Of a stretch of DNA of 64,000 nt, positions 10,230 to 36,454 are shown one piece after another. The position numbers were made by a program, and so were the translations under genes. Origin of the DNA: Myxococcales bacterium. Lineage in GTDB: Bacteria; Myxococcota_A; Polyangia; Palsa-1104; JAEUJZ01. The stretch covers positions 244,693-308,692 of the forward strand of contig JAEUKB010000025.1 of assembly GCA_016794365.1 (NCBI GenBank). The letters run 5' to 3'. Every line of letters begins with the position of its first letter. Position 1 is the stretch's first letter. The notes under the pieces were generated by a model. That model was not told the DNA's origin and ran no database searches. It saw only the letters and a program-made list of their open reading frames with translations.

Positions 10230-11099
10230 CTTCAGCCGGTGAACGTCATGGTGGTGACGGATGAATCGAGCGGACAGCAGGATCTGGTCAAGGTGCTCGA
10301 CTTCGGGATTGCCAAGCTCAGCGCCGAATCGACCAGCCAGACCAAGTCGGGCGTGCTGATGGGAACTCCCACCTATATGTCACCAGAGCAGTGCCGGAGC
10401 GGGCGCAATGCGGTGGATCGCAGCGACGTGTATGCGCTTGGTATCATCATGTACGAGATGCTGGCCGGAGCGACTCCGTTTCGGGGTGGACCCGCTGCGC
10501 TGATGATCGCGCATCAGACCCAAGATCCAGCGCCGCTTGCATCGAAAGCTCCGCATGTCTCTGCGGAACTGTGCGCGCTCATCCATCGAATGCTGGCCAA
10601 GAGTCCCGCAGAGCGTCCGACTGCCAGTGAAGTGGTACGGAGTCTGTCTCCGCAAAGTGGACAGATGTCGCAGATCTCGCAGTCGCATCCGCTGATCAGT
10701 AGCAGCATCCAAGCCGTTGCGTTTCAGGATCTTCCGACGGCAATACAGGGAACAAATCCCGCCAGTGCTTCTCTGCTGGGATCGATTCCCAGACAGCGCA
10801 GAGGAACGCTCATCGGAACGGCTGCGGCCTTGGTGCTGATCCTGGGACTTGGTGGACTGTTTGTGCTTCTGACGATGACAGGAAAGGGAAGCGGAGTCTC
10901 TACCTCAGACCTTGGGATGCGCAAAGATGCGGTCATTGTTCCTTCAGATCTTGGGGTTCCTGCTGGATTGTCAAAGCCAGATCCTACAAAGGAAACTGGC
11001 CAGTCCGATCCAGCTCTGCATGGCAAAGCAGAGCGAACCAGCCTCAACAAAGGGAATCGCAGCAAGACTAAGTCGGGACTTCGCCGCTCCACAAAATGA
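10230..11099 (+). pseudogene. C-terminal half (subdomains VIb-XI + TM tail) of the split Ser/Thr kinase
   Basis: LQPVNVMVV, VLDFGIAKL, GTPTYMSPEQ, DVYALGIIMYEML, then TM LIGTAAALVLILGLGGLFVLL. Begins exactly where the 4218 fragment stops. Confidence 0.8.
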
Positions 11100-12021
11100 T
11101 CGTGCGTGCGCTGCGCGGCTGCATTGAAGGACTCGGTCCGCTGTATAGCGGAACGTAGCCCAGGAACTGATTGGGACGCAGCACCATGAAGCTGCGCTGA
11201 TCGCGCAAGATCAGCGATACTTCCAGATACACACCATGACGAGCCAGCAGGGGAAACACCTGCTTGAGCAGGCGCTCGCTGGCTTCCTTGGCCCACGGCG
11301 TTCCGTTTCCGGTCACTGCATCGTCGCTGAGCAGCTTGATCGCAATGGCAGAGACAGGCACAAACGCCACGGCTCCCAGCACAGCACCACTACCAATGGA
11401 CCAGGTTCCCACTTGGATGCCGCGCGTTCGGACAGGACGCTGAAGAGTCGTGCGCGCAATCGAAACTTCCAGCTCGGGATAGAGCTGTGAAAAGACAAAG
11501 TGAACCGTAGACAGACTGCGGATTCCGAGCAAGCTGCGCAGCTGTCCCACGGTCTGGGTGAAGTCAGCAAAGAGGCTGGGATCGCGCTCTGGGAACTGTG
11601 CTTCTACGCTTCCGCGCAGCAGCCGGTGCGCAAAGAAGTTCAGAAAGTCGGTCAGCGTTCCTTCATGCTGCGCATCCAATGCGGCGCGAAAGTAGGAAGG
11701 GAGCAAGCTCTGGGAAGACAGTAGACCCAGGTTGAGCGTGACAATGACTCGTCGCTGCGGGGTCTCGGACCACTCTACTTTGGACACCACCGCAGCCTGA
11801 TGCGTCTGGGTCGCATGACTGCGGAACTCGATCTGATCGCTCTGATAGCCCAGCTCATGCAGTGCATCCAGAAGTGCTCCCAGAGAAAAGCGAACAGCTC
11901 GTTCGCTAATGATGCGTCGCTTGCGATCAAACACTGACTCTGGAACAGGAGCCGCGATTCCTGCTTGGGCGCTGCGTGGTCCTTTGACGATGTCCTTGGG
12001 CGGACGTGGTGGCTGCGGCAT
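11068..12021 (-). CDS. tssG: T6SS baseplate protein TssG (ImpH family)
   Basis: VTLNLGLLSSQSLLPSYFRAALDAQHEGTLTDFLNFFAHRLL matches the TssG core (tvnF.GL.G..g.LP..yte......dg.l.dFld.F.HR). About 317 aa. Confidence 0.7.
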   Translation of the reverse strand: MPQPPRPPKDIVKGPRSAQAGIAAPVPESVFDRKRRIISERAVRFSLGALLDALHELGYQSDQIEFRSHATQTHQAAVVSKVEWSETPQRRVIVTLNLGLLSSQSLLPSYFRAALDAQHEGTLTDFLNFFAHRLLRGSVEAQFPERDPSLFADFTQTVGQLRSLLGIRSLSTVHFVFSQLYPELEVSIARTTLQRPVRTRGIQVGTWSIGSGAVLGAVAFVPVSAIAIKLLSDDAVTGNGTPWAKEASERLLKQVFPLLARHGVYLEVSLILRDQRSFMVLRPNQFLGYVPLYSGPSPSMQPRSARTIILWSGEVPT

Positions 12022-12024
12022 GAC

Positions 12025-13485
12025 TTATCGCTCACTGTCTGCAACAAAGCGATGCACATCGGATCGACACAGGAGCCGCAGCATCTCTGTCTCGAGATCT
12101 TCGCTGGGCTTTAGGTGTGGCTCTAGCTTGCTGCTGTGCTGGATGAGCGCCAGCAGATAGTCAATCAAGAGCGTAGGAAAGTAGCGCGACGGCTCAAACC
12201 CTTGGAGCTTCTTTGCGATGTGCTGTTGCAAGATGGCGGCTCTGCGATAGCGCTGCTTGTTGACCAGCCGCACAAAGCCCGCCAGTTCTGCGAGCAGTAG
12301 CTTCAGCTCTGACCCGAGCGGAATGCTGAGCGTCTCTGCGGCATGACTGGATGGAGCAAGCGCGCTCGGAGCAGCTGCTGGATCCGCTGCCGATGCGGTG
12401 GTCAGCACTTGTGGTACAGGCGATGTACTTGCTTTGTGCGGATCGGCTGCGGATGCATCTACGCTGTCATCATCGCTGTCATCATCGCTGTCATCATCGC
12501 TGTCATCATCATCGCTACGACTTTCCGGTTCGGCTGACTGGTCGCTTCGGCTGTCTTCCGGTTCAGAGTCTTCTTCCTCTTCCTCTTCCTCTTCCTCTTC
12601 CTCATCGCGGGCTGCGTCTTCTTCGTCCGCATCGGTATTGTCTCTTGACTTCGTCTCTGCATCATCGGAGTCCTCGTCCGATTCCTCGTCCGACTTGTCA
12701 TCGTCATCTGAATCGTCATCGGAATCATCATCGGAATCGTCGTCGGAATCGTCATCGGAGTCATCATCTGAATCGTCATCGGAATCATCATCGGAGTCAT
12801 CATCGGAGTCATCATCGGAGTCATCATCGGAGTCATCATCGGAATCATCATCCTTCTTGGGCTCGTCGTCTTCTCCAGGTGGTGGCGGCGGAGCAGGAAT
12901 CTGCGTGGCTCCTTTCAGATCCCAGCCCGCGTTGGCTGCGGGCGCTTGCGCAAGTCCCTGTAGGAGCGATTGAAGGTGGAGCAGCGGCTGCTTGCTGCGT
13001 GAGCCCGGAATGAACTGATCCAGCGTCTCTAACAGCTTGTTGCAGTGCTCCAGAGCTTGCGCTTGCGCGGCATGCTGCCAGTCATGATTCCACTTGGTCC
13101 ACAGCTCATCTTTTTGACGTTCATGAAAGCGAACCTGCGACACGATGCTGTCAAACAGCCAGCGCAGCGAGACATCCAGATGGCGTTCTTTTTTGATCGT
13201 TGGACTCAGGTACGCAAGGTTGTCTGCGATGGCGCGACGAATGCATTCAAACAGCAGACTGAGCGACGCAACACCTCGCTCGACAAACACGCCGAACAGA
13301 TAGCAGCCGATCGTGCGGACATCGTAGATCTGCTGCTGCCAGAGCTTTTGGGCGCGCTCTGCTGCGGGAAGATAGCGATTCTGACTGGTCAGAGACAGGA
13401 TCTCATCCAGCTCGCGATCTTCGATCCCCAACTCGCGCTTTCCCGGCGCTGAGAGGATCTGCTCAAGTGGCTCCGTAACGATCAT
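12025..13485 (-). CDS. TssA-like (ImpA_N-like N-terminus) protein with giant poly-acidic (DDDS)n/(E)n insert
   Basis: The N-terminal EPLEQILSAPGKRELGIEDRELDEI resembles the ImpA_N motif LL.PIS...P.G.DL..D.EF. The central ~130 aa are DSDDDSDDD... and E12. The C-terminus is helical. Tightly linked to tssG. Confidence 0.35.
   Translation of the reverse strand: MIVTEPLEQILSAPGKRELGIEDRELDEILSLTSQNRYLPAAERAQKLWQQQIYDVRTIGCYLFGVFVERGVASLSLLFECIRRAIADNLAYLSPTIKKERHLDVSLRWLFDSIVSQVRFHERQKDELWTKWNHDWQHAAQAQALEHCNKLLETLDQFIPGSRSKQPLLHLQSLLQGLAQAPAANAGWDLKGATQIPAPPPPPGEDDEPKKDDDSDDDSDDDSDDDSDDDSDDDSDDDSDDDSDDDSDDDSDDDSDDDSDDDDKSDEESDEDSDDAETKSRDNTDADEEDAARDEEEEEEEEEEEDSEPEDSRSDQSAEPESRSDDDDSDDDSDDDSDDDSVDASAADPHKASTSPVPQVLTTASAADPAAAPSALAPSSHAAETLSIPLGSELKLLLAELAGFVRLVNKQRYRRAAILQQHIAKKLQGFEPSRYFPTLLIDYLLALIQHSSKLEPHLKPSEDLETEMLRLLCRSDVHRFVADSER
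12440..12850. repeat. 12-bp tandem coding repeats (tcatcatcggag / tcatcatcgctg) plus (ttcctc)n
   Basis: Visible runs of 12-bp units at ~12459-12520 and ~12700-12850 and (ttcctc)n at ~12560-12600. They encode the poly-acidic tract on the minus strand. Confidence 0.8.
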
Positions 13486-13876
13486 GACGGCTCCTTTTCA
13501 GCGTATCTTCACGTAGCGTTGCGTCCTTCTGTCCGGGATCTACTACAGAGATCGTTCCAGCATAGTCACAGCGTAGTGTGGCGCTTTCTTCGACGAGCTT
13601 CTGACCTTGCAAAAGGATTCCTTCTACTTCGTCAGACCATGCATTACCGATCCGAGGCGTACACGGCTTCTGTCCACTCGGGCTCTGTGGGTTCGGATTG
13701 GCTGGCGCTTTGCAGAATCGAAACGGAGGGATGTTCACAAGCGGCAGATGATCATCAATGGTCGCCAGGGATCCATCGCCGCCATGACTGACTCCGCGTC
13801 GCGAGATGCTAAGCCGGACTTCTCCCTGTCCGTACGAACACTGAAGCTTTGCGCCATCACAAACCAACGATGACAT
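13463..13876 (-). CDS. DUF4280 (PAAR-like) protein
   Basis: LVCDGAKLQCSYGQ, NIPPFRFCKAPANPN, PCTP..GNAWS, LRCDYAGTISVVDPGQ. This is the characteristic DUF4280 Cys pattern found with T6SS spikes. Confidence 0.7.
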   Translation of the reverse strand: MSSLVCDGAKLQCSYGQGEVRLSISRRGVSHGGDGSLATIDDHLPLVNIPPFRFCKAPANPNPQSPSGQKPCTPRIGNAWSDEVEGILLQGQKLVEESATLRCDYAGTISVVDPGQKDATLREDTLKRSRHDRYGAT

Positions 13877-13885
13877 CGCGGACTC

Positions 13886-15709
13886 CTACTTCCGAAGGGA
13901 TGCTGCGCGCATCGCGATCAGACCCGCTGGCGTACTGATGCGATGACACGCAAGGATCAGTCGATCAATCAAGTTGAGCGCTGGGTCTTGCGCCCGCTTA
14001 TCCAGCTGTCCTTCTCGATGCTGGCCGGCACACCAGCCGTAGTCGATCGCGCCGTCTTTGGTACGCGGCAGCGCAGCCAGCAGCCGAACGGAGTTGGGCT
14101 CAAAAGACGGTCCCAGGCGCTGACGAATCTGTTCCCGGATCTTGTGCTCTACCTGTATTCGCTTGGTCGCTGTCATACGCCGCATGTGTGGTCCCAAAAA
14201 CACCAGAAAGCTCGCCCTTCCTTTGTCACTCTGTTCGGGAACCAGGACGGCTCCAGCGACGTAGGGAAGCTCTTGGGTGACTGCTTCTACTTCGGTTGCA
14301 CCCAGGCTGTGTCCGCCACTGGAAGGCCAGCGCGTTCCTCCGTACAGATAGCCTCCGTTGTGTTCATAGAGCAGCAGCCCGCAGGCCCCCGGAATCGGTC
14401 GCAGGATTCCGTTTGTACCGCGCGCGGGCTGATCTTCGGCTTGGGGATCGCACAGCGAAAACGGACGACCTGGCGACGGATAGACAAGCTGTGGGGGCGT
14501 ACCCCGCTGCGGCAGAGAGAACAGCAGACAGCCCGCACTTGCTGCATCGTAGTGCCAGCAGCGCACAGGCGTTTTCTCTAGCTCATACTGCGCAGACCAG
14601 TCCTTCCAGTTCAGTGTGTCACTGGCTTCTGTAAAGGCACACAGCCATGATCGCACACCCCGCAGCGGAGCCGCTCTGTGCAAAAGCAGTTGGTCGCGTA
14701 GTAGCGGCTCCACCAGCAGAATATCGACGGGCGGCAGCCGACTTCCCAAAGAGACAAGCTGCGCTGCATCCAGGTGAAGGTAGGTTCCGCCATGCAGCAA
14801 AACCAGTAGAAGGAGTGTCGGCTGATACTGAAGGAGTCGATGCTCTGGCGCGCACACCACGGTGCCAAACTGCGCGGGCTGAATCCCCAGAATCAGTCCA
14901 TCACAGAGCGCACCCAGATAGGCAGAGGACGCATTGACAGCAATGGGAATCCAGCCCGGATCGCGCTGCGGAGAAAACAGCGCAAACAGCGCATCACTGG
15001 CTCCGTAAGGACGCGATCCAAGTGATGTGGTAGCAGGGCTACTTTCCAGCTCTGCGGCGGCTGCCATCGTCTGTTCGGCTTGCTGCGGATGAATGATGAT
15101 CTCTTCGAGCAGTGCATCAGCGAGCGGAACCGCTTGCGGTCCGTACCACTCCTTGAGCAGCGGGTGATAGCGTCGAGCCGTGACAATGTGCTGCGGTCGC
15201 AGTGCGCGCAAGCGATTCGCCAGAAAGTCCGCACCTTGCGGTGGCAGAACCGAGACAACGGCGCCCACACGCAGCGCTGCACACAGCGCCAAAAGCAGCT
15301 CTGGACCCAGGGGATAGATGATGCAGAGGATGTCTCCTGCTTGGACCCCGCGCTTGCGAAAGGAGTCCGCGACAAGCGCTGCTGCGGCATGCAGGTGGCC
15401 ATAGGAAATGGCGCAGAGCGGCTCTGATTCCTTCTGTCCTACAATCGGTCCTTCCGTCGCATACAGCATGGCTGGGCGGCTTCCGTATGGACCCAGTGCG
15501 TGCCGTGCGACTGCATCATGATACAGATCAAAGGCCATCCCAAGCTGGCTCTTGGCTGGCGCTACGCTCAGTCGCGCGGCCTGCTGCATCAGCGCTTCCG
15601 CAAAGGCCGCTGGACTGCGCAGACTCTCTGCCAGCCAAATTCGGTCACGCATGACACCATCGCCAGGCTGCTGTAACTGCAAACGAACTGCATCAAGAGA
15701 GATCATCAT
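13886..15709 (-). CDS. Divergent ANL-superfamily adenylate-forming (AMP-binding) enzyme-like protein
   Basis: The C-terminal subdomain motifs are recognisable: YGGTRW..GGHSLGATEVEAV (Y-G-x-T-E), VLVPEQSDKGRASFLVFL, LPRTKDGAIDYGW (A10-like PKTxSGKI). The N-terminal substrate region LCIIYPLGPELLLALCAALRVGAVVSVLPPQG is present. The P-loop (TSGTTGxPKG) is degenerate. Confidence 0.5.
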   Translation of the reverse strand: MMISLDAVRLQLQQPGDGVMRDRIWLAESLRSPAAFAEALMQQAARLSVAPAKSQLGMAFDLYHDAVARHALGPYGSRPAMLYATEGPIVGQKESEPLCAISYGHLHAAAALVADSFRKRGVQAGDILCIIYPLGPELLLALCAALRVGAVVSVLPPQGADFLANRLRALRPQHIVTARRYHPLLKEWYGPQAVPLADALLEEIIIHPQQAEQTMAAAAELESSPATTSLGSRPYGASDALFALFSPQRDPGWIPIAVNASSAYLGALCDGLILGIQPAQFGTVVCAPEHRLLQYQPTLLLLVLLHGGTYLHLDAAQLVSLGSRLPPVDILLVEPLLRDQLLLHRAAPLRGVRSWLCAFTEASDTLNWKDWSAQYELEKTPVRCWHYDAASAGCLLFSLPQRGTPPQLVYPSPGRPFSLCDPQAEDQPARGTNGILRPIPGACGLLLYEHNGGYLYGGTRWPSSGGHSLGATEVEAVTQELPYVAGAVLVPEQSDKGRASFLVFLGPHMRRMTATKRIQVEHKIREQIRQRLGPSFEPNSVRLLAALPRTKDGAIDYGWCAGQHREGQLDKRAQDPALNLIDRLILACHRISTPAGLIAMRAASLRK

Positions 15710-15766
15710 GACAGAGCTTCCTTGTTGGCTTGTTGGCGCGATGCACAGAGGCTCCGCTTCTTTGTG

Positions 15767-16198
15767 CTACAGCAGCCTGCGACACTCCCGTACTTCGCTG
15801 GCGCGGACTCCACTGCGGCCAAGGGGAATCGTTATTCTCCACGGCAGAAGTGGTGCGACCAGCATCTTCCAGCTTGCCGCAGGTGTGGTGTACAGAAAGT
15901 ACAGACCCAGCGGCTTTTCTTTGTCGTGCTTGATCCAAACGCTGCGATATCGACCGGCCTGTGGATCGATGATGACTGAACGCAAAACAGTTGCATCTGG
16001 CGTCACCACCAGCGCGGACACAGAGGCGTGAGACTCACTGCGCTGCTGCTGCTCATCAACCGAGCGAACCAGCACGCGCAGCGGTCTTCCTTCATTGGTG
16101 CTTGGATCAGACAGCAGCGTCAGTTTGACATAGCCGGGATAGCAGCCGCCAAGGATCAGCACAGCCAAGCCGAACAGCCGTAGCCCAATAAGAGGCAT
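15767..16198 (-). CDS. tssJ: T6SS outer-membrane lipoprotein TssJ-like
   Basis: About 143 aa. Signal plus lipobox LAVLILGGC, then the beta-rich region YPGYVKLTLLSDPSTNEGRPLRVLVRSVDEQQ typical of TssJ/SciN. Start placed at MPLIGLRL to avoid overlap with tssM. Confidence 0.55.
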   Translation of the reverse strand: MPLIGLRLFGLAVLILGGCYPGYVKLTLLSDPSTNEGRPLRVLVRSVDEQQQRSESHASVSALVVTPDATVLRSVIIDPQAGRYRSVWIKHDKEKPLGLYFLYTTPAASWKMLVAPLLPWRITIPLGRSGVRASEVRECRRLL

Positions 16199-16211
16199 AG
16201 AAAAAGACTCT

Positions 16212-20135: not shown

Positions 20136-20147
20136 GCTACACTCCTG

Positions 20148-20732
20148 TTACTTTCCGGCCACTCGGCGAAGGCCGCGCAGCGTGTCTTCCAAGCGATACA
20201 GTAGTTCAAACACCGTACCTGCCGAGGCATGACGCATCGGATGATAGGGTGGCGGAGTCGCTCCCGGGGTGAGCCTGGCGATGCGAACACGAAGCGGCTC
20301 AATGATTCCTGACAGCATCGAGACGCGGGGTCCCAGCTCTGTACGCAGAACGAACAGGAGCTTTTCGAGCAGCTCCTCTGGATTTTCCTGCGGAGCATCT
20401 GCCAGATCGATCAGCTCTTCGGCATCTTCGAGGTTCTCAGGATCGGAAACCTCATCCAGGATCTCGTCTACCTCTTCCTGATCAAACCCTTCTTCGGAAT
20501 CTGTCTTCAGCGTGTCTGCATCCGCAGCCTTTGGAGCGTGCTCAGTTGGATCGCTGCCGTCGGTTTTGCGCTGGCTCTGTTTGCTCTTTCGCTTTTTCTT
20601 TCCTGCGCTTGCTGTTGTCTCTCCCGCGATGATGTGATGGAGCGTATCGACCGCGTTGTGCGGCTCTGTCTTCCGTCCCCACAACGGACCCACACGCTGA
20701 CTGTTTAGTAGCTCACTGAAGTTCACTTTCAT
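20148..20732 (-). CDS. Hypothetical charged protein between tssL and tssM
   Basis: 194 aa, with a Lys-rich (KKKRKSKQSQRK) then strongly acidic (EEVDEILDEVSDPENLEDAEELIDLADAP) centre. No TagF (GxFGKLP) or FHA motifs found. Confidence 0.3.
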   Translation of the reverse strand: MKVNFSELLNSQRVGPLWGRKTEPHNAVDTLHHIIAGETTASAGKKKRKSKQSQRKTDGSDPTEHAPKAADADTLKTDSEEGFDQEEVDEILDEVSDPENLEDAEELIDLADAPQENPEELLEKLLFVLRTELGPRVSMLSGIIEPLRVRIARLTPGATPPPYHPMRHASAGTVFELLYRLEDTLRGLRRVAGK

Positions 20733-20795
20733 CGCTTGCCCCCCGCTGTGCTGGCACTACATATGGCCTCTTTGGTCTTGCAGTCCTTTGTGCGA

Positions 20796-27896: not shown

Positions 27897-27899
27897 GAC

Positions 27900-29937: not shown

Positions 29938-30342
29938 TCGCTCGGTGTCTGGCTCGATCTGTACGTCGCCGCTGCACAGATGAAACAGGATCTTGAGCTG
30001 GCACGGAACCGCACCCTTGCGGGTCTTTAGGGAGCCGCGCAGATGGATGTGAAGACGCAGCTCTGCATCGCGACCTTTGCAGGACAGATCACGCAGTCGC
30101 AGACGTGACTCTAGCCGGAAAATGACATCTTCAATCTCACGCAAGATGGAAAGCTGCGCACCTTTGTTGCCCTGCTGCGCCAGATAGTCAGCGACGCCAT
30201 ACTGAATCAGTCTTGAGCTGTATCCTGGCCGCGCGCAGAGCAGGTTCTGTAGGTTCCGCATGACAGACTGCAGCTCATCATCTTGCGGAGGCGACTCTAG
30301 GAATCGGTTGAGGAATGACATGCGCAGCCTTCCTATCGCCAA
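29917..30342 (-). CDS. tssE: T6SS baseplate protein TssE (gp25/GPW lysozyme-like)
   Basis: 141 aa. SFLNRFLESPP...LQSVMRNLQNLLCARPG...YGVADY matches the gp25-like pattern, with tssK immediately upstream. Confidence 0.7.
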   Translation of the reverse strand: MAIGRLRMSFLNRFLESPPQDDELQSVMRNLQNLLCARPGYSSRLIQYGVADYLAQQGNKGAQLSILREIEDVIFRLESRLRLRDLSCKGRDAELRLHIHLRGSLKTRKGAVPCQLKILFHLCSGDVQIEPDTEREVRRGA

Positions 30343-31577
30343 AACAGAAAGAGGTTGGCTCGCTCCAGAACCGGATGGACATACGCAGACAGAGATCCTT
30401 CACGCATCGCGTGATCCCACTCTTCACCGCCTTGCAGAAGATAGAAGTCAACCTCTGGACCGAAGGTGTGCTGAAACGGCGGACGCTCGACCAGCTTGAA
30501 CGGAACGCCACGCAAGACCAAGCGATGCACCAGCGCAAGCCGCGAGGTACACGACAGCTTGATATCATCCATCACAATGCGATCGTGCAGCGTGGGACGC
30601 TGAATCAGCAGATAGACTTCCTGCGCATCTTTGACTTCTTGCGGAAGTCCGCTGCATGTAAACAGACCGTTGCTCTTCTGAAAGCGCAGGTGCGTAGATC
30701 GAACGTACACAGGCCGCAGTGCTTGCTGAAGCAGACGGAAGACCTGTCCCATCGTCCGTCCCAGATCATCATGGGAATAGGGCAGGGCAGTGTGATCGGG
30801 CTGCACTTCATGGAAGCAGCAGGTCTCAAAGTACAGCTCGCGCAGCGCTTGATGCAGACAGTACGGATGAAGCGATACGCGATTGGATAGATCACCAAGC
30901 AGGCTCTCTACTTTGTAGATCGCTGCCAAGCTGCGCCGAATGGTCGCCAGTCTGTCCGGTCGCAAAAAGGTGTCCTGAAGCTGCGCGGCAAGCTGCGGAA
31001 TCAGGGCTCTTAACTGCGCAGACAGAAGCTGTAGGGACGGCTGAAGATGTGGCGTGTTTCCGACGCTGAGAAGAGGCGGAATGGCTGACGCTTGCAGGCT
31101 CCAGCTTCCTGCGACTCCTTTTTCAAACTCACCCAGTCGCAAGGATGCAACGCTGCGCTCGATTTGATCGCTGATGCTCAGGGTTGCGCGCGAAAGGACT
31201 CGCTCGACCGTGCGCGGATCACTGTCATAGACGCGATTCCCTTGCGCAGAGACTGCATCAGACAGAAGGTGCAGATACACGCTGACTCGCGTGGCAGATG
31301 TGGCAGCAAGCGACAGCGGAGCCACCGTGCAGCTACCCGGAACACTGATGACAATTCCTTCGGGAAGGACTGCGGTCAGCTCTCCGATCGACAGCACGCC
31401 ATCACGTAACAGCGACTCATGAAAGGAAAGCTGCGCAATCCCGTAGTGAGGAAGTCCTCCGACCCGTGCGCGAAGCTCACTGGCTGATGCCGTAAGCTCC
31501 TGCAAGGCCACAAAGTGCTCGGGCAGGACCGTCTGCCCCAGATACCATCTTACGGGTGCGATCTTCAGCGTGCTCAT
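30333..31577 (-). CDS. tssK: T6SS baseplate protein TssK
   Basis: MSTLKIAPVRWYLGQTVLPEHFVALQE matches the TssK N-terminus (M.K..W.EG..L.PQHFQQ). About 414 aa. The alternative start at 31670 adds 31 non-conserved residues. Confidence 0.75.
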   Translation of the reverse strand: MSTLKIAPVRWYLGQTVLPEHFVALQELTASASELRARVGGLPHYGIAQLSFHESLLRDGVLSIGELTAVLPEGIVISVPGSCTVAPLSLAATSATRVSVYLHLLSDAVSAQGNRVYDSDPRTVERVLSRATLSISDQIERSVASLRLGEFEKGVAGSWSLQASAIPPLLSVGNTPHLQPSLQLLSAQLRALIPQLAAQLQDTFLRPDRLATIRRSLAAIYKVESLLGDLSNRVSLHPYCLHQALRELYFETCCFHEVQPDHTALPYSHDDLGRTMGQVFRLLQQALRPVYVRSTHLRFQKSNGLFTCSGLPQEVKDAQEVYLLIQRPTLHDRIVMDDIKLSCTSRLALVHRLVLRGVPFKLVERPPFQHTFGPEVDFYLLQGGEEWDHAMREGSLSAYVHPVLERANLFLFWR

Positions 31578-31685
31578 CGCTTTGCTTGCCACTCGCCACG
31601 CGAGTAAGCGGTCTATGTAACGCGCCACAGAACAGGGAATCGGATCCAAACGGAACGACTCCCGACACACAGATTCCGACTCTGC

Positions 31686-32327
31686 TTACGTCGCTGGACC
31701 CTGTCGTCCCCAGTTCTTGGTGACCTTGCGAGTGGCCGAGGTCGCAAACAGCAGCGACTGAACCTCTGGCTTGGGAACCACCTTGAGCGTCAGCTTGTAG
31801 TTCTTCGGCGACTCGACATCGGTTCCGGCCTCTGCATCGATCTCCAGTCCGAGCGCTTCGCCGTCTTTCTGAATCTGTCCGCGCACCGATCTTCCAGCTG
31901 CGGCATCGGTTGCAGCCTGCGCAGAGTTTGAAAATGCAGCGTAGTACTTTTTGGAAAGCGGATCGTATTCATAGACCACGAATCCCACTTCACAATCGAC
32001 ATCGATCATCGATGCGTAGACCAGAGCGCTGATCGCTTGCTTGCTGGCAATCGAGACCTGCGCTTCAAAGATCAGCGGATCGGTATCACCGAGCGCCCAG
32101 GTGACGTTGGCCAGGACGCCAACAACGGTGAGCGCACCGATGGTTGCGGTGGCATTTGCGGTCAGTCCGGTTCCGGTGACTGCGGCCATCGGGCTGTTCA
32201 CCGTGAAGTCTGGCGTAAACGTCTCCATACCGATCTTGAGCGAAGTCAGAAAGCCAATCGTTGCTTGCTGATCTTTCTTAAAGTCGAAGCCCTGCTTCAC
32301 ATTCATCGCGCGGTTGTACTCGGCCAT
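31686..32327 (-). CDS. Candidate inner-tube (Hcp-like) protein, divergent, 213 aa
   Basis: Occupies the position directly downstream of tssB-tssC where hcp usually sits. Beta-rich, no TM. No Hcp motif could be confirmed by eye. Confidence 0.3.
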   Translation of the reverse strand: MAEYNRAMNVKQGFDFKKDQQATIGFLTSLKIGMETFTPDFTVNSPMAAVTGTGLTANATATIGALTVVGVLANVTWALGDTDPLIFEAQVSIASKQAISALVYASMIDVDCEVGFVVYEYDPLSKKYYAAFSNSAQAATDAAAGRSVRGQIQKDGEALGLEIDAEAGTDVESPKNYKLTLKVVPKPEVQSLLFATSATRKVTKNWGRQGPAT

Positions 32328-32389
32328 CGTGTGCTCCCATTCCTAACGAATGATTGAAACCATCAAGGTGTCTCTGCGAGCGATTCCGG

Positions 32390-33880
32390 CTATCCCAGCC
32401 GTGACTCCAGCCGCAGCTCGACATCCATTCCTTCAAACTGAATGTGCGGCAGGATCGAGATCTTGCAGTCGTAGTATCCGAGCCGACCGGGCATCGGATT
32501 GACCTGGACTTGTGCGGCGCGGAAGGGGAAGGTCCGCATCGTCATATCGTCGGGACGGACTTCGGTGGTGACATACTGCTCAAGCCACGTTGACAGCACG
32601 CTCTGTACGTAGCCTGCGGTCGCGACATCACCGATGTTGTCACGCATGATGCTCTTGACGTAGTGCGCGATGCGGGCAATCGAAAACGTATAGGACAGGT
32701 TGCAGACAAGCTGCGCGTTTTCAGAGTCCTTCGGATCCTTGAACTTCTTCGGACGCTTGATGGACTGTGCGCTAAAGAACGTCGCTTCACCGGCTCCCTT
32801 GCGATAGACAAGGGGAATGATTCCGTTTCGCGAGTACTCCAGTTCGCGGTAGTCAGGAATGCAGATCTCGACGGGAATCCGCATCTCATCTTCGCCCCGG
32901 ATGTTGAACATATCAACCGGCAGACCGCTGATCATTCCGCCGCCTTTGGGACCGCGAATGTACTGACACCAGCCGGTGTTTTCAAACGAGCGAATTACAT
33001 TGCGCGCAAACAGCAGTGCAGAGCTTCCCCACAGATAGTTGCCGTGCTCTCCGCTGGTCTGTTCATGAAACGGAAGACCTGGACTGGGATTGGTTTCCGG
33101 GCTCCAAGGGAGTCGCACCACGTAGCGCGGGAAGGTCAGACCGATGTACGCACCCTCTTCGGATTCACGCAGAGACTGCCACTGAGAGTAGCGCGGCTGG
33201 CTGAGCAGACCGTCGAGATCTTTGATCGCTTCGACCTGCTGCATGTTGCCACAGCCCAAAAATTGCGGAGAGATCGATCCAATAAACGGTGAGTGACTGG
33301 CCGCCGCGATCTTCGACATGCTGCGCAGCCAGAACAGATCACGCGCTTGGGTTGTGAAGTCATACAGACCAATCAGCGCGCCGTAGGGACGACCACCGTA
33401 CTGATCGTACTCTGCGATGTAGACCTTCTCGAACAGCGCACTGCCAAAGATGTCGCTCGAGTTGTTTTCAAAGTCTTCAAACAGCTCGTCTTTGCTGACA
33501 TCAAGCAGCTCGACGGTGACGTTCGACTGGAAGTTGGCGTTTTCGACCAGCTGATCGATTCCGCGCCAGGTCGCTTCCATGTGCTGAAACTGTTGATGGT
33601 GAAAGATCTCGTTGAGCTGATCATTTACCATCGTGTCGATCTGGCGAACGACATCCAGGACTTTTCCTTTTTCGTAGCGACCACCGCTGTGATCGGTGTT
33701 GTACAGAATCGCTGCGAGTCCCGAGAGCATGCGATCTTCCAGCGAGACATCTTCATGCACCTCGCCAAACGTATCGCGAATCATCGGAACCAAGCTCACG
33801 TTCTTGGACTCCATATCCATGGTTGCGACAATCCGCTTGAGGATGGAGCCACTCTCTGTTGCGACGGGGGGTTGTGCCAT
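32390..33880 (-). CDS. tssC: T6SS contractile sheath large subunit TssC (VipB)
   Basis: 496 aa, directly downstream of tssB. Conserved-looking core (FENANFQSNVTVELLDVSKDEL..., GRPYGALIGLYDF, LTFPRYVVRLPW). Confidence 0.8.
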   Translation of the reverse strand: MAQPPVATESGSILKRIVATMDMESKNVSLVPMIRDTFGEVHEDVSLEDRMLSGLAAILYNTDHSGGRYEKGKVLDVVRQIDTMVNDQLNEIFHHQQFQHMEATWRGIDQLVENANFQSNVTVELLDVSKDELFEDFENNSSDIFGSALFEKVYIAEYDQYGGRPYGALIGLYDFTTQARDLFWLRSMSKIAAASHSPFIGSISPQFLGCGNMQQVEAIKDLDGLLSQPRYSQWQSLRESEEGAYIGLTFPRYVVRLPWSPETNPSPGLPFHEQTSGEHGNYLWGSSALLFARNVIRSFENTGWCQYIRGPKGGGMISGLPVDMFNIRGEDEMRIPVEICIPDYRELEYSRNGIIPLVYRKGAGEATFFSAQSIKRPKKFKDPKDSENAQLVCNLSYTFSIARIAHYVKSIMRDNIGDVATAGYVQSVLSTWLEQYVTTEVRPDDMTMRTFPFRAAQVQVNPMPGRLGYYDCKISILPHIQFEGMDVELRLESRLG

Positions 33881-33921
33881 CGATCACTCCTTACAGCGCA
33901 CAATAGGAACCGTTCGGTTCG

Positions 33922-34545
33922 TTAGGTTTCCTGCGTCGGCTGCGTGAGCGCTTTTTGCGAGCTAGGCAGCTTGTAGTCCGATAGCGCAGCCAGTTCCTTT
34001 TGCAGGGTCTTGAGCTGCTCTGGACTGCTCCAGATTTCTTGGATGACGCGACGTAGATCTTTGCGATTGTCGATGTTCGACTGCATCTCTAGCAGGAGCT
34101 TTCGTAGCAGCAGCAGGGAACGAATCTTGGGAACGTTGTCCGCGACATTTCCCGGTGTGAAGGAGCGGCGATTCTTGATCGGAATGCTCACTTCAAGGGT
34201 GGAATCGCTGCCTGGATCAATGCGGTTTGCCACCTTGAAGTTCAGGCTCATGCGCATGTTTTCCATGACGCTGTCCAGGTTCTTGTCGGTGAGCGAGCGC
34301 AGCCTGCGCGACTCCAGATCGACCTCGCGATCGGTGGCAGAGCCGCTGGACAGATCACCCAGTACCATCACGCGGAACGGCAGCTCCAACATCTGAGCGG
34401 TGCCTTGGATCTCTGTACGGTAGCGAAGGTTGATGCGAGAACGTGGGATGTCATCTTGAATCGACACGCCGATACTCCTACGAAGTGGTGTTTCCTTTGG
34501 GATTGCAACCGATATGCCAGCAGTTCGGAGTGCCCAAGGAATCAC
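33922..34545 (-). CDS. tssB: T6SS sheath small subunit TssB (VipA); GTG start
   Basis: INLRYRTEIQGTAQMLELPFRVMVLGDLS matches the TssB core (ELPFkmLVlGDftg). About 207 aa. Confidence 0.8.
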   Translation of the reverse strand: MIPWALRTAGISVAIPKETPLRRSIGVSIQDDIPRSRINLRYRTEIQGTAQMLELPFRVMVLGDLSSGSATDREVDLESRRLRSLTDKNLDSVMENMRMSLNFKVANRIDPGSDSTLEVSIPIKNRRSFTPGNVADNVPKIRSLLLLRKLLLEMQSNIDNRKDLRRVIQEIWSSPEQLKTLQKELAALSDYKLPSSQKALTQPTQET

Positions 34546-34616
34546 TGACAGCGCCAGGAGATCGTGTTGAATGAAGGCTGCGCTCAGTGACTGTTGCGAG
34601 CGAGCGCAGAGCGGAC

Positions 34617-34722
34617 GCTGCGCGCGAGCAGCGTGTCGGTTGGGAGTGTGTCCGTGCGGGTGATTTCGTCTTCACTGTGCGCGCGAGCAGTGCGCGAGCA
34701 GCGCGCGAGCACGGAGCGAGCA
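34617..34722. promoter_or_regulatory. Cluster of 4-5 GCGCGAGCA(G) repeats in the tssB / regulator divergent intergenic region (candidate enhancer/UAS sites)
   Basis: tgcgcgcgagcagcg at 34617-34631 and gcgcgcgagcagtgcgcgagcagcgcgcgagcacggagcgagc at 34677-34722. Confidence 0.35.
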
Positions 34723-34791
34723 TCCGCGCACAGGCTCCCAATGCCGTCGCTACGAGGCCGATCTCCGTTCGTCCTACGTGCTGCACTGCGC

Positions 34792-34807
34792 TGGCACAAA
34801 GACTGCT
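34792..34807 (+). promoter_or_regulatory. Sigma-54-type -24/-12 promoter candidate (TGGCAC-N5-CTGCT) upstream of the regulator gene
   Basis: TGGCACaaagaCTGCT has GG-N10-GC spacing. Predicted TSS is ~34818. GGAGG at 34832-34836 precedes the GTG at 34841. Confidence 0.45.
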
Positions 34808-34840
34808 ATTTCACCAAAGTAGGATGGTTCTGGAGGTCTT

Positions 34841-36454
34841 GTGAAGACCGCGCACAGTGATATTTCTCCGTCGGCACGAACGGCTCCCAATCCACTGGCA
34901 GAGCAGTTTGATTCTACTGAAGCAGATGTCCTTGCACTGGTGGTGCTGTGGTCCGCGCGTGAGCCTTCTCGCGTAGGAGAAGTCGCACTCCTTCCCGCAG
35001 AGTATCCAGTGTGGCTGTTCGGTCGCGATCCCGAGCAGCCGATCACAGAGTCTGTTCAGCGCACCAGCGCAGCCAGTGGCTTTGCTGATTCAGAAGAAGT
35101 ACGTCCTTCATCCAGCAGTCCGGCCAGTCGTGCGCAAGGCGTTGTGCGCTTTGTCAGACAGCGACCGGACGGCGTGTCTTCTGGAGAGCCTCCGCGCGCG
35201 CTCGCTGGAGAGAGCATTTCCCGACTTCAGCTTCATATGAGCCATCGTGAAGAGGGACTGTTTACCCAGAACGTCGGACGCTGCGCGCTGCTGGTGAATG
35301 GTCAGCCAACTCAGGCGGCGATGATTCATCCTGGGGATACGCTGTATCTGCGCAATCAGCTGCTGCTGTTGTGTATTCGCAGACCGATTCGACTTCAGCC
35401 GCTGCGCGCGTATCCCAGAGACAGGCTGCGTGATTTCGGGATTCCTGATGTAGACGGAATGATAGGAGAAAGTCCTGCGATGTGGCATCTGCGCGAGCGG
35501 CTCGCCGCGTGTGCGCGCAGTGATCAGAATGTCCTTGTGGTGGGGGAAAGCGGAAGCGGAAAGGAGCTGGCTGCGCAGGCGATTCATGCGATGTCTGTTC
35601 GTCGTGACAAGCCGCTCGTGGCCGACAACATCTCTGCGATTCCGTCCAGCTTGGCGGTGGCACTTTTGTTTGGTAACAAGCGCAACTTTCCAAACCCTGG
35701 CATGGAAGAGCGCGTGGGACTCATCGGTGCGGCAGATGGATCAATGCTGTTTCTTGATGAAATCGGAGACATGCCCGAAGAAGTTCAGCCGATGTTTCTG
35801 CGGGTGGCTGAGCGCAACGGAGAGTATTTTCGACTGGGTGAAGAGGGTCGAATTCGCCGCTCTGACTTTCGCTTGATCGGGGCCACCAATCGTCCAGAGC
35901 GGATGCGCTACGAGCTAAAGCGTCGTTTCCAGCGAGAGATTCGCGTTCCCAGCTTGAACGAACGGAAGGAAGACATTCCGCTGCTGATTCGTCACCTCCT
36001 GGAAGTACAAGCGCGCCAAGGTGATCCCAATGTCCTGAGCTTTTTTGATCCACAGACCCAAAGACCGCGTGTGCATCCGCTCTTGATTGAGCAGCTTGTG
36101 CGGCACACCTACGTGACCAATGTCTCGGAAGTGGAGTTTCTGCTGGGCCATGCGATGGCAGAGAGCGCAGGGGATGTGCTGACCCCGATTCGCGGTGCGC
36201 TGCCACAGCAGGGACGACCGATGCGTCCAGAGCTGGCTCCGCATCTGCCGCTGCATACCGCGCCACTCCGTCGCTTGGTTCCTGCGATTCCTTCCCCTGA
36301 GCGCGCGCAGCAAGCGCTAGATGACGCGCAAGGCAACGTGGTGAGAGCCGCTGCATCGCTTGGGATCAGCAGACATCAGCTCAACCGCATCATCCGGCGA
36401 CATGCTTTGGAAAAAAAACGCGGACCCAGATCGTCGTCGGCGATCAGCTCCTAA
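34841..36454 (+). CDS. FHA-domain AAA+ enhancer-binding-protein-like transcriptional regulator (NtrC/VasH-like) lacking the GAFTGA motif
   Basis: FHA-like GRCALLVNGQPTQAAMIHPGDTLYL. Walker A VVGESGSGKE, Walker B MLFLDEIGDM, RLIGATN. C-terminal Fis-type HTH. Where GAFTGA should be, the sequence is ALLFGNKRNFPNPG. Confidence 0.75.
   Translation: MKTAHSDISPSARTAPNPLAEQFDSTEADVLALVVLWSAREPSRVGEVALLPAEYPVWLFGRDPEQPITESVQRTSAASGFADSEEVRPSSSSPASRAQGVVRFVRQRPDGVSSGEPPRALAGESISRLQLHMSHREEGLFTQNVGRCALLVNGQPTQAAMIHPGDTLYLRNQLLLLCIRRPIRLQPLRAYPRDRLRDFGIPDVDGMIGESPAMWHLRERLAACARSDQNVLVVGESGSGKELAAQAIHAMSVRRDKPLVADNISAIPSSLAVALLFGNKRNFPNPGMEERVGLIGAADGSMLFLDEIGDMPEEVQPMFLRVAERNGEYFRLGEEGRIRRSDFRLIGATNRPERMRYELKRRFQREIRVPSLNERKEDIPLLIRHLLEVQARQGDPNVLSFFDPQTQRPRVHPLLIEQLVRHTYVTNVSEVEFLLGHAMAESAGDVLTPIRGALPQQGRPMRPELAPHLPLHTAPLRRLVPAIPSPERAQQALDDAQGNVVRAAASLGISRHQLNRIIRRHALEKKRGPRSSSAISS

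What the first reader, a model, noticed from the sequence alone, without database searches (positions are those of the whole stretch)
11068..36454. Atypical T6SS-like locus with scrambled order, extra large genes and no ClpV/VgrG in view
Recognisable tssB, tssC, tssE, tssF, tssG, tssJ, tssK, tssL and tssM are all on one strand, so a contractile apparatus with a TssJLM membrane complex is encoded. The organisation is unusual in several ways. tssG is displaced ~9 kb from tssF. Two large unknown genes (a ~680-aa protein and a 1568-aa repetitive giant) sit between tssE and tssF. An adenylate-forming enzyme, a DUF4280 protein and a poly-acidic TssA-like protein are co-operonic. No ClpV (TssH) ATPase or canonical VgrG is visible anywhere in 64 kb. 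This could be a lineage-specific T6SS variant with novel structural or effector components.
Basis: partly seen in the sequence, partly recalled or inferred. Interest (0 to 1): 0.8.

Follow-up and report, generated by a model that had tools for sequence, protein, structure and literature searches.

The report
Francisella-type type VI secretion system in a myxobacterium
This gene cluster encodes a complete contractile protein-injection machine of the rare kind so far attributed only to the tularemia bacterium Francisella, here found in an uncultured soil/water myxobacterium and, through its relatives, in many myxobacteria and methane-oxidising bacteria.

Summary

The oddities are therefore the hallmarks of T6SSii, joined to a canonical TssE and TssK that Francisella lacks. 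The same ~15-gene set recurs in at least 139 loci from the one-genome-per-species collection (Myxococcota, Methylococcales, a Planctomycetota MAG) as three shuffled modules, so the "scrambling" is ordinary for this family. Specific to this lineage are the ~1340-aa low-complexity extension on the needle, the acidic insert in IglI, and a 194-aa gene. The adenylate-forming "enzyme" has lost its catalytic motifs. Verdict: a new variant of a known kind.

The parts
34841..36454 (+). Sigma-54-dependent transcriptional activator (bacterial enhancer-binding protein, EBP), divergent from the T6SS operon
   Evidence: Pfam Sigma54_activat E 8.8e-35, plus HTH_8. NCBIfam NtrC/NorR-like.
34679..34722 (.). 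Four tandem 11-bp repeats (GCGCGCGAGCA) in the divergent intergenic region; candidate activator-binding sites
   Evidence: TRF and sequence read. Lies 160-200 bp upstream of the -24/-12 element. The function is inferred only.
34504..34519 (-). Sigma-54 type -24/-12 promoter element TGGCATATCGGTTGCA, 37 nt upstream of the tssB start
   Evidence: One mismatch to TGGCAC-N5-TTGCW; only 3 such one-mismatch sites in 64 kb. Sequence context. The same element is found in the closest relative L003 and a similar one in L001/L002, against 0.007 expected per 300 nt.
33922..34467 (-). tssB / iglA-like small sheath subunit (181 aa)
   Evidence: Pfam T6SS_VipA E 2e-39. Best solved relative is Francisella IglA at 102 bits, against 63.5 for M. 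xanthus TssB and 56 for VipA. The start matches gene calls on identical contigs.
32390..33880 (-). tssC / iglB-like large sheath subunit (496 aa)
   Evidence: Pfam VipB E 7.6e-109. TIGR03355 482 bits. Best solved relative is IglB 3j9o_B at 389.5 bits, above VipB at 358, P. aeruginosa TssC1 at 345 and M. xanthus TssC at 323.
31686..32327 (-).
30333..31670 (-). tssK baseplate subunit (445 aa), canonical type
   Evidence: TIGR03353 295 bits, above its cutoff of 100. The PDB sequence search returned only chains named TssK or 'type VI secretion protein'; no chain named IglD appeared at E <= 0.01.
29917..30321 (-). tssE (gp25-like sheath initiator, 134 aa)
   Evidence: Pfam GPW_gp25 E 2.2e-9. TIGR03357 E 2.5e-13. 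Gene call on identical contigs.
27900..29915 (-). PdpA-like spike hub (671 aa; gp27/gp5-OB-like) with a Pro/Thr/Ser/Gln-rich low-complexity C-terminal tail
   Evidence: The family profile hits Francisella PdpA 6u9e_A at E 1.8e-7. AF2 model has pLDDT 76. The Foldseek top three are the PdpA entries 6u9e/f/g (E 6e-26), followed by VgrG and eCIS spikes. The tail from residue 606 of the 704-aa ORF is disordered.
27201..27722 (-). Short VgrG beta-helix needle domain (residues ~59-232 of the 1568-aa protein)
   Evidence: Homologous to free-standing ~190-225-aa proteins found in the same position in most related loci. Their profile hits VgrG 8gra_I at E 3e-8, the Anabaena CIS spike 7b5h at 1e-6, and Francisella VgrG 6u9e_B at 1.3e-4 over nearly its full length.
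23190..27896 (-). Whole 1568-aa gene: VgrG needle plus a ~1340-aa Ser/Gly/Gln/Ala-rich extension
   Evidence: Intact 4.7-kb ORF. No Pfam domain. Islands at aa 370-560, 650-709 and 1315-1442 are conserved with the 1101-aa and 1608-aa orthologues in L001 and L007. All tandem repeats have periods that are multiples of 3.
21554..23200 (-). tssF / iglH baseplate subunit (548 aa)
   Evidence: Pfam T6SS_TssF E 1.1e-17. TIGR03359 E 3.8e-22, and NF041246 TssF/IglH E 1.3e-9.
20796..21557 (-). dotU / tssL (253 aa), with a C-terminal membrane anchor
   Evidence: Pfam DotU E 9.2e-18. Hydrophobic segment at aa 235-253.
20148..20732 (-). 194-aa acidic protein of unknown function, lineage-specific
   Evidence: No family hit. 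Homologues found only in near relatives L001, L002, L007, L009 and L016.
16212..20135 (-). tssM / pdpB-class inner-membrane subunit (1307 aa)
   Evidence: Pfam IcmF-related_N. TIGR03348 E 2e-13 over the C-terminal part. Hydrophobic helices at aa 26-44 and 364-382. A GNTGAGKS P-loop is visible in the sequence.
15767..16198 (-). IglE-type outer-membrane lipoprotein (TssJ position)
   Evidence: Pfam IglE_N 56 bits, above the gathering score of 26. NF041245 T6SS_IglE E 3.9e-7, below its cutoff. Signal peptide with lipobox L-G-G-C. The start codon is inferred.
13886..15709 (-). Degenerate ANL-superfamily (acyl-CoA synthetase-like) protein, 607 aa, probably non-catalytic
   Evidence: Only the N-terminal strand region and the C-terminal subdomain match AMP-binding models. 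The central 290 aa match nothing. The family alignment lacks the P-loop, the A7 Asp and the A10 Lys. The best PDB match is the Acs chain 2p2j_A, whose aligned sequence reads SGAI where the query reads DGAI, so both have Ala at the A10-lysine position. Found next to DUF4280/IglI in 42 of 42 loci.
13463..13876 (-). DUF4280 PAAR-like spike cap (IglG class), 137 aa, without the IglG N-terminal helix
   Evidence: Pfam DUF4280 E 1.3e-22, covering residues 5-116. NF041248 IglG E 2.3e-4.
12025..13485 (-). IglI-family protein (TssA-like N-terminal domain) with a ~160-aa poly-Asp/Ser/Glu insert
   Evidence: NF041244 IglI_fam 180.6 bits, above its cutoff of 100. Relatives are 310-370 aa and lack the insert. 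ImpA_N is detected in 13 of 21 family members, best E 1.2e-6. In-frame 12-nt repeats.
11068..12021 (-). tssG / iglJ-position baseplate subunit (317 aa)
   Evidence: Pfam T6SS_TssG E 1.5e-8. Always travels with iglI in related loci.

Best explanation
The locus encodes one complete type VI secretion system of the Francisella (T6SSii) architecture, in an uncultured Myxococcales bacterium. It is probably transcribed as a single sigma-54-dependent operon.

Proposed assembly:
- TssM, DotU and the IglE-type lipoprotein form the envelope-spanning complex.
- TssK, TssF, TssG and TssE form the baseplate.
- The central spike is built from two genes instead of one VgrG. A PdpA-like trimer supplies the gp27/OB-fold hub, a short VgrG beta-helix supplies the needle, and the DUF4280 PAAR-like protein caps it.
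- An IglC-type tube polymerises inside an IglA/IglB-like sheath, helped by the IglI (TssA-like) protein.
- Contraction expels tube, spike and whatever rides on them.

In this lineage the needle protein carries a ~1340-aa, mostly low-complexity extension with three conserved islands. I read this as spike-borne cargo, in the manner of an 'evolved VgrG'. The degenerate acyl-CoA-synthetase-like protein is a conserved non-catalytic accessory of the cap/IglI/TssG module.

No ClpV is needed in the cluster. As in Francisella, the contracted sheath is presumably recycled by the housekeeping ClpB.

Shown: the identity of each part and the conservation of the gene set. Inferred: assembly order, ClpB use, and the roles of the extension and the ANL-like protein.
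For: - Sheath: TssB and TssC match Francisella IglA and IglB best among all solved sheaths.
- Hub: PdpA homology by profile (E 1.8e-7) and by fold (E 6e-26, top three hits).
- Needle: the profile hits VgrG helices, including Francisella VgrG.
- Accessory parts: IglE_N, DUF4280 and IglI_fam are above or near curated thresholds. ImpA_N occurs in the IglI family.
- Conservation: the same ~15 genes recur in three modules in relatives at 30-90% identity, across Myxococcota, Methylococcales and a Planctomycetota MAG. PdpA-like proteins form 477 clusters at 50% identity.
- Split spike: in one MAG (L014/L015) hub, needle and extension are fused in one 2314-aa ORF, as expected if the two genes are halves of a VgrG.
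- Regulation: a sigma-54 element lies beside a divergent activator gene.
- ClpB precedent: Francisella lacks ClpV and uses ClpB (PMC5481754, PMC10653695).
Against: - No phylogeny was made. 'Closest to IglA/IglB' rests on bit scores against the few solved sheaths.
- TssK and TssE are canonical, whereas Francisella IglD is very divergent and no TssE is known there (PMC9600919). This is not simply 'an FPI'.
- The NCBIfam IglE and IglG models are matched below their cutoffs.
- No homologues of PdpC, PdpD, PdpE or IglF were identified.
- One relative (L023) carries a ClpB/ClpV-like ATPase inside the cluster, so ClpV-independence is not universal. It could not be checked genome-wide here.
- Nothing shows that the system is expressed or fires.
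Confidence: 0.8

Rival explanations
1. It is an ordinary T6SSi cluster whose hcp, vgrG, PAAR and clpV genes lie elsewhere in the genome. The unknown genes in the cluster are then lineage-specific effectors or accessories.
For: TssB, TssC, TssK and TssE score well against the T6SSi TIGRFAM models. Orphan hcp/vgrG islands are common in T6SSi genomes (PMC4793230, PMC13098142). The rest of the genome could not be examined.
Against: The cluster already holds a tube protein, a hub, a needle and a cap, each structurally or profile-matched to the Francisella versions. They are conserved in the same positions in dozens of genomes. The sheath subunits match IglA/IglB better than the classical M. xanthus T6SSi sheath.
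Confidence: 0.08
2. The cluster is a decaying or non-functional remnant. The giant repetitive gene and the acidic insert are then products of slippage in relaxed sequence.
For: There are many in-frame tandem repeats in three genes. Metagenome contigs break inside the giant gene. The ANL-like protein has lost its catalytic motifs.
Against: All 16 reading frames are intact and tightly packed. A 4.7-kb ORF is maintained. Conserved islands in the extension persist at 46-61% identity in orthologues of 1101 and 1608 aa. The degenerate ANL-like protein is conserved with its own invariant residues in 36 of 41 long loci. An intact sigma-54 promoter and activator are present.
Confidence: 0.04
3. The system is closer to the second, poorly studied Francisella novicida island (FNI) type than to the FPI. 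Both would then belong to a broad clade that bridges T6SSi and T6SSii, so 'T6SSii' is the wrong label for it.
For: The DUF4280 protein here lacks the N-terminal helix that is FPI-specific and absent from the FNI protein FTN_0054. IglF is also FPI-specific (PMC5014421). The FNI carries a phospholipase-C-like candidate effector (PMC5014421), and Methylobacter relatives are followed by lipase or PLC-like genes. A 2026 survey places T6SSii nested within T6SSi and reports Francisella genomes with both types (PMC13098142).
Against: PdpA, IglC, IglA and IglB of the FPI are the best structural or sequence matches found. However, no FNI protein has a solved structure to compete with them, so this test is biased. 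FNI sequences could not be fetched.
Confidence: 0.3

Closest known systems
Francisella pathogenicity island T6SS (T6SSii): IglA/B sheath, IglC tube, PdpA+VgrG spike, IglG cap, IglE-DotU-PdpB membrane complex, IglI, IglH/IglJ/IglD baseplate, ClpB recycling
   Same: Split spike (PdpA-type hub plus a ~200-aa VgrG needle), IglC-fold tube of ~210 aa, IglE-type lipoprotein, DUF4280 cap, IglI-family protein next to the TssG-position gene, and no ClpV in the cluster. The sheath subunits are the nearest solved relatives.
   Different: Keeps a recognisable TssE and a canonical TssK, TssF and TssG. No PdpC, PdpD, PdpE or AnmK was recognised. The cap lacks the IglF-binding N-terminal helix. A degenerate ANL-like protein is a conserved member. 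The host is a free-living myxobacterium, not an intracellular pathogen. Regulation is by sigma-54.
Francisella novicida island (FNI, FTN_0037-0054), a second putative T6SS of unknown function
   Same: DUF4280 cap without an N-terminal extension and no IglF (PMC5014421). A phospholipase-type candidate effector resembles those next to the Methylobacter relatives.
   Different: Not testable here, because no FNI sequence or structure was available. Its TssK is reported to lie between the FPI and T6SSiii types (PMC9600919), whereas the TssK here is plainly canonical.
Canonical T6SSi (for example V. cholerae, P. aeruginosa H1, and the classical M. xanthus T6SS)
   Same: TssB, C, E, F, G, K, L and M are all recognisable. 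There is a TssJLM-type membrane complex. Sigma-54/EBP control has precedent in T6SSi (own knowledge: VasH in V. cholerae).
   Different: No Hcp-family tube, no one-piece VgrG, no PAAR-family cap and no ClpV. The sheath is a poorer match to T6SSi sheaths, including that of M. xanthus, than to IglA/IglB.
'Evolved' VgrG proteins with C-terminal effector domains (own knowledge: V. cholerae VgrG1 and VgrG3)
   Same: A C-terminal extension begins right after the end of the needle helix, in the position from which spike-borne effectors are delivered.
   Different: The extension is ~1340 aa, mostly Ser/Gly/Gln/Ala low complexity, has no recognisable enzymatic domain, and is attached to a short needle-only VgrG rather than a full VgrG.

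Membership tests
T6SSii (Francisella-type T6SS) | IglA/IglB-type sheath | tested here: met
   Best solved matches are IglA (102 against 63.5 bits or less) and IglB (389.5 against 358 bits or less). These are bit-score rankings, not a phylogeny.
T6SSii (Francisella-type T6SS) | IglC-fold tube protein instead of an Hcp-family protein | tested here: met
T6SSii (Francisella-type T6SS) | Spike split into a PdpA hub and a short (~165-200 aa) VgrG needle | tested here: met
   PdpA match by profile and by fold. The needle profile hits Francisella VgrG and other VgrG helices. In this window the needle is fused to a long extension; in most relatives it is a free ~200-aa protein.
T6SSii (Francisella-type T6SS) | IglE lipoprotein in place of TssJ | tested here: met
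   Pfam IglE_N 56 bits, above the gathering score of 26. A lipobox is present. The NCBIfam equivalog model scores only 30 bits, below its cutoff of 75.
T6SSii (Francisella-type T6SS) | DUF4280 PAAR-like cap (IglG) with an N-terminal helix that binds IglF | tested here: inconclusive
   The DUF4280 domain is met (E 1.3e-22). The N-terminal extension is absent, since the domain starts at residue 5. That extension is described as specific to FPI IglG (PMC5014421).
T6SSii (Francisella-type T6SS) | IglI family protein | tested here: met
   NF041244 180.6 bits, above its cutoff of 100.
T6SSii (Francisella-type T6SS) | No ClpV in the system; ClpB recycles the sheath | tested here: inconclusive
   No ClpV in the 64 kb or inside most related clusters. 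One relative has a Clp ATPase in the cluster. Use of ClpB, and the rest of the genome, could not be tested.
T6SSii (Francisella-type T6SS) | No recognisable TssE; highly divergent TssK (IglD) | tested here: not met
   A clear TssE and a canonical TssK are present.
T6SSii (Francisella-type T6SS) | FPI-specific proteins IglF, PdpC, PdpD, PdpE | not testable with these tools
   No Francisella sequences could be fetched. No NCBIfam or Pfam hit to such families was seen for any ORF.
T6SSi (canonical) | Thirteen core genes including Hcp (TssD), one-piece VgrG (TssI) and ClpV (TssH) | tested here: not met
   Hcp, VgrG and ClpV family models match nothing in the window. TssB, C, E, F, G, K, L and M are present.
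ANL superfamily adenylate-forming enzymes | A3 P-loop (T/S-G-x-T-G-x-P-K-G), A7 Asp, A8 hinge, A10 catalytic Lys | tested here: not met
   Fold-level membership is supported by N- and C-terminal matches. All four motifs are absent or truncated across 22 family members, and the central 290 aa match no model.

The most novel reading that the evidence does not exclude
This family is the missing free-living branch of the Francisella T6SSii lineage. It is widespread in Myxococcota and Methylococcales, escapes detection because it satisfies neither the T6SSi nor the Francisella-trained T6SSii models, and still keeps ancestral parts. If so, it can be used to assign the unknown Francisella components: IglI as the TssA equivalent, and a search image for the missing TssE. 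It would also reveal two new T6SS parts: a conserved catalytically dead acyl-CoA-synthetase-like subunit, and a needle-borne giant low-complexity cargo.
Probability: 0.35. Interest if true: 0.8.

Novelty: new variant of a known kind. Interest (0 to 1): 0.66.

Why it matters
Reviews and primary papers up to 2026 state that T6SSii exists only in Francisella (PMC4793230, PMC10653695, PMC12955703). A 2026 survey adds a single Dongshaea genome (PMC13098142). Several Francisella parts (TssA, TssE, IglF, IglI) remain unassigned or of unknown function (PMC5924787, PMC9600919).

A large family from environmental bacteria combines the Francisella spike, tube, cap, lipoprotein and IglI with a canonical baseplate. 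It includes culturable, non-pathogenic species. That gives an evolutionary bridge between T6SSi and T6SSii. It also gives alignments deep enough to interpret the fast-evolving Francisella proteins, and safe model organisms for studying ClpV-independent sheath recycling and split-spike assembly.

It also flags a blind spot of current secretion-system detectors. This last point is inference, not tested here.

Tried and rejected
- **Single-sequence PDB searches.** The 704-aa, 213-aa and giant N-terminal sequences found nothing meaningful. Profiles or predicted folds were needed.
- **Reaching Francisella IglI.** The aim was to reach the FPI DNA through an IglI-family profile search.
- **An NCBIfam IglF-like model.** Scanning pieces of the ANL-like protein found none. 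A literature search for IglF together with adenylation terms was uninformative. The idea that the ANL-like protein is the IglF equivalent rested on same size and same neighbourhood.
- **Family-wide sigma-54 control.** This is not supported. The strict -24/-12 element is seen only in the window, L003 and L001/L002. An earlier scan used a wrong offset.
- **Transmembrane segments in the giant extension.** Only weakly hydrophobic stretches were found, so no pore-forming claim is made.

Full report
**1. What is in the sequence**

The minus strand carries sixteen tightly packed, intact reading frames from 34467 down to 11068. A sigma-54 activator gene diverges from them at 34841-36454.

Pfam and NCBIfam recognise TssB, TssC, TssK, TssE, TssF, DotU/TssL, TssM, TssG, an AMP-binding protein and DUF4280. 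Five genes had no Pfam hit at first:
- a 213-aa gene after tssC;
- the 671/704-aa gene;
- the 1568-aa gene;
- a 194-aa gene;
- the 486-aa acidic gene. NCBIfam places this last one in the IglI family.

No other ORF of 300 aa or more in the 64 kb has a Clp/AAA_2 or VgrG domain. The flanks encode Ser/Thr kinases, DUF1552/DUF1592-family proteins, a P450, an ECF-type sigma factor and a group II intron reverse transcriptase.

The 213-aa protein is 100% identical to a protein of a Myxococcales MAG. The nearest genome-collection hit is another uncultured Myxococcales MAG, at 82% identity over the PdpA-like protein.

**2. First clue: Francisella-specific families**

- The lipoprotein in the TssJ position matches Pfam IglE_N (56 bits against a gathering score of 26) and, weakly, NCBIfam T6SS_IglE.
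- The acidic 'TssA-like' protein matches NCBIfam IglI_fam at 180.6 bits (cutoff 100), over the whole profile and across its insert.
- The DUF4280 protein weakly matches the IglG model. DUF4280 is the PAAR-like cap family defined on Francisella IglG (PMC5014421, PMC5349215).

**3. The two 'large unknown genes' are the spike**

*The 704-aa ORF.* It has 74 homologues in the 5.8-billion-protein collection. All are unnamed or 'hypothetical', from Sorangium, Polyangium, Myxococcales and Planctomycetota.
- A profile of 41 of them hits one solved protein: Francisella PdpA (6u9e_A, E 1.8e-7).
- The AlphaFold2 model has mean pLDDT 76, and the core from residue 40 to 600 is mostly above 85.
- Its three best Foldseek matches are the three PdpA-VgrG entries (E ~6e-26, TM 0.57/0.67). 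Next come T6SS VgrG, eCIS spikes and phage gp27-type hubs.

*The 1568-aa protein.* Residues ~59-232 are homologous to free-standing proteins of ~190-225 aa. These occupy the same slot, between the PdpA-like gene and tssF, in most related loci.
- The profile of those small proteins hits VgrG beta-helices: 8gra_I at E 3e-8, and the Anabaena CIS spike at 1e-6.
- It also hits the 189-residue Francisella VgrG chain over nearly its whole length (E 1.3e-4).

So the cluster has a VgrG equivalent, split into hub and needle exactly as in Francisella (PMC5924787, PMC10653695). In one MAG (L014/L015) hub, needle and an extension are fused in one 2314-aa frame. This is what one expects of two halves of one ancestral protein.

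**4. The tube**

**5. The sheath and baseplate**

Among all solved structures the best sequence matches are:

| Protein | Best match | Next matches |
|---|---|---|
| TssB | Francisella IglA, 102 bits | M. xanthus TssB 63.5; VipA 56; HsiB1 39 |
| TssC | Francisella IglB, 389.5 bits | VipB 358; P. aeruginosa TssC1 345; M. xanthus TssC 323 |

By contrast:
- TssK matches the canonical TssK model strongly (295 bits). The PDB sequence search returned only chains named TssK or 'type VI secretion protein'.
- A gp25-type TssE is present. Francisella has no recognisable TssE, and its IglD is remote from other TssKs (PMC9600919).

**6. Relatives and gene order**

A scan of one genome per species for the PdpA-like family found 139 loci, of which 80 were fetched. 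They come from:
- Myxococcota: Archangium, Corallococcus, Hyalangium, Polyangium, Sorangium, Haliangium, Kofleriaceae, Nannocystaceae, Enhygromyxa and Paraliomyxa;
- Methylococcales: Methylobacter and Crenothrix;
- a few others, including a Planctomycetota MAG.

In the 1.84-billion-representative library the family has 477 clusters at E <= 1e-3 and 299 at E <= 1e-30.

Mapping the window's 16 proteins onto these loci shows a recurrent set of about 15 genes in three modules:
1. tssB-tssC-iglC-like-tssK-tssE-pdpA-like-needle-tssF-dotU
2. tssM-iglE
3. ANL-like-DUF4280-iglI-tssG

The modules are arranged differently in different clades. In 41 loci of 19 kb or more:
- the components are each found in 32 to 41 loci;
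- the exception is DUF4280, found in 24, probably an under-count for a short protein;
- the 194-aa gene is found in 1.

The ANL-like gene and iglI lie within two genes of each other in 42 of 42 loci.

The 'displacement' of tssG from tssF is therefore the normal state of this family. iglI also sits next to iglJ (the TssG equivalent) in the Francisella island, in the gene order as I recall it.

**7. ClpV**

None of the related clusters has room for a ClpV inside the conserved set. The exception is the Planctomycetota MAG, where a 952-aa Clp_N/AAA_2/ClpB_D2-small protein sits between dotU and tssM. Francisella lacks ClpV and uses ClpB (PMC5481754, PMC10653695). The same is the economical inference here, but it is only an inference.

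**8. The ANL-like protein**

It matches acyl/acetyl-CoA synthetases only over ~60-110 residues near the N-terminus and over the C-terminal subdomain. The central 290 residues match no NCBIfam model, here or in two relatives. In an alignment of 22 family members:
- the P-loop position reads L-F-S-P-L-R-x-x-P;
- the A7 T-G-D position reads G-G-T;
- the A8 hinge segment is shortened;
- the A10 lysine is Ala, Val or another residue.

The best PDB match is the Acs chain 2p2j_A. In its aligned sequence Ala occupies the same A10 position as in the query (SGAI against DGAI).

The family has its own invariant residues and is nearly always present. I therefore read it as a non-catalytic structural or adaptor subunit. 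It has the size and neighbourhood of Francisella IglF. Homology to IglF is unproven, and I give it low odds.

**9. What is specific to this lineage**

- *The needle extension.* It begins immediately after the position where the family's small proteins end (…G-S-L-V-K-L-G).
  - It runs for ~1340 residues rich in Ser, Gly, Gln and Ala.
  - Islands at 370-560, 650-709 and 1315-1442 are conserved at 38-61% identity with the 1101-aa and 1608-aa orthologues.
  - Longer needle proteins (387-1662-aa frames) occur in about a quarter of loci.
- *Other low-complexity additions.* The PdpA-like protein has a Pro/Thr/Ser/Gln tail. IglI has a ~160-aa Asp/Ser/Glu insert that relatives of 310-370 aa lack.
- *Repeat structure.* All tandem repeats in these genes have periods that are multiples of three.

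I interpret the extension as spike-borne cargo. No enzymatic domain and no clear membrane segment was found.

**10. Regulation**

A -24/-12 element (TGGCATATCGGTTGCA) lies 37 nt upstream of the tssB start. It is one of three one-mismatch sites in the window. A second such site precedes the activator gene. Four 11-bp repeats lie 160-200 bp upstream. The element is shared with the nearest relatives only.

**11. Comparison with the literature**

- T6SSii is described as restricted to Francisella (PMC4793230: 30 systems, all in 18 Francisella genomes; also PMC10653695 and PMC12955703).
- A 2026 survey reports one Dongshaea genome as well, and finds T6SSii nested within T6SSi in a TssC tree (PMC13098142).
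- In 2009, ten of 18 FPI proteins had no homologue outside Francisella (PMC2660368).
- Full-text searches found no paper linking PdpA, IglC, IglE or IglI to myxobacteria or methanotrophs.
- NCBI's annotation pipeline already names Methylobacter proteins 'IglI family', so the homology is partly embedded in databases.
- The little-studied F. novicida island (FNI) may be a closer relative than the FPI. I could not test this.

**12. Verdict**

What is there is a complete Francisella-type T6SS that retains canonical baseplate parts, and it belongs to a large, essentially undescribed family. I rate it a new variant of a known kind, of good but not exceptional interest. The lineage-specific giant needle extension and the dead ANL-like subunit are the least understood parts.

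Noticed in passing
window 27900-28200, 23190-27200 and 12460-12860: Three proteins of the same operon have each acquired long low-complexity segments built from in-frame 6-39-nt tandem repeats: the PdpA-like tail, the needle extension and the IglI insert. Relatives outside this lineage lack them.
   Followed up: partly
window 34679-34722 and 34792-34807: There are four 11-bp repeats (GCGCGCGAGCA) between the divergent tssB and activator genes. A second near-consensus sigma-54 element (TGGCACAAAGACTGCT) lies just upstream of the activator gene. Together these suggest autoregulation.
   Followed up: no
L023:14779-17634 (Planctomycetota MAG OFTM248): A 952-aa Clp_N/AAA_2/ClpB_D2-small ATPase lies inside an otherwise typical cluster of this family, between dotU and tssM. 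It is the only relative seen with a dedicated ClpV/ClpB-like gene.
   Followed up: partly
L082:18864-20597, L038:16821-18857, L079:9026-11074 (Methylococcales): Genes directly downstream of the ANL-like gene encode a class-3 lipase or DUF6765 proteins with a weak Zn-phospholipase-C match. These are plausible phospholipase effectors of this T6SS family.
   Followed up: no
L014 and L015: 9719-16660 (MAG AMR_MDS_0291, two copies on one contig): The PdpA-like hub, the VgrG needle and a long extension are fused in a single 2314-aa reading frame. The whole cluster is duplicated about 32 kb apart on the same contig.
   Followed up: partly
L011:19273-21627, L040:9990-12320 and other Myxococcaceae/Archangiaceae loci: A conserved ~780-aa coiled-coil protein with apolipoprotein-like repeats is encoded convergently, right after iglE.
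   Followed up: no
L034, L041, L069, L072, L080, L081 (Myxococcaceae/Archangium): In these loci a PdpA-like gene either stands alone among the mapped genes (L034, L072) or is followed by oppositely oriented iglE and, in some, tssM and dotU (L041, L069, L080, L081). It lacks the usual tssE and needle neighbours. This may be a second arrangement or an orphan spike locus.
   Followed up: no
one search hits P0199, P0200, P0206, P0232, P0233, P0262, P0263 (1342-1361 aa) and P0259 (1955 aa): A subset of PdpA-like proteins carries ~800-aa or longer C-terminal extensions. Extension of spike parts is therefore recurrent in the family.
   Followed up: no
window 57064-59431: A group II intron reverse transcriptase/maturase ORF (57064-58557) overlaps the start of a serine recombinase gene (58478-59431). 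This is a mobile-element patch about 20 kb from the T6SS.
   Followed up: no
window 37395-40384: A DUF1552 (HXXSHH) and DUF1592/1588/1595/1585/1587 gene pair lies next to the activator gene. This pairing is typical of Planctomycetota and Myxococcota, and it is conserved beside the T6SS in identical metagenome contigs.
   Followed up: no
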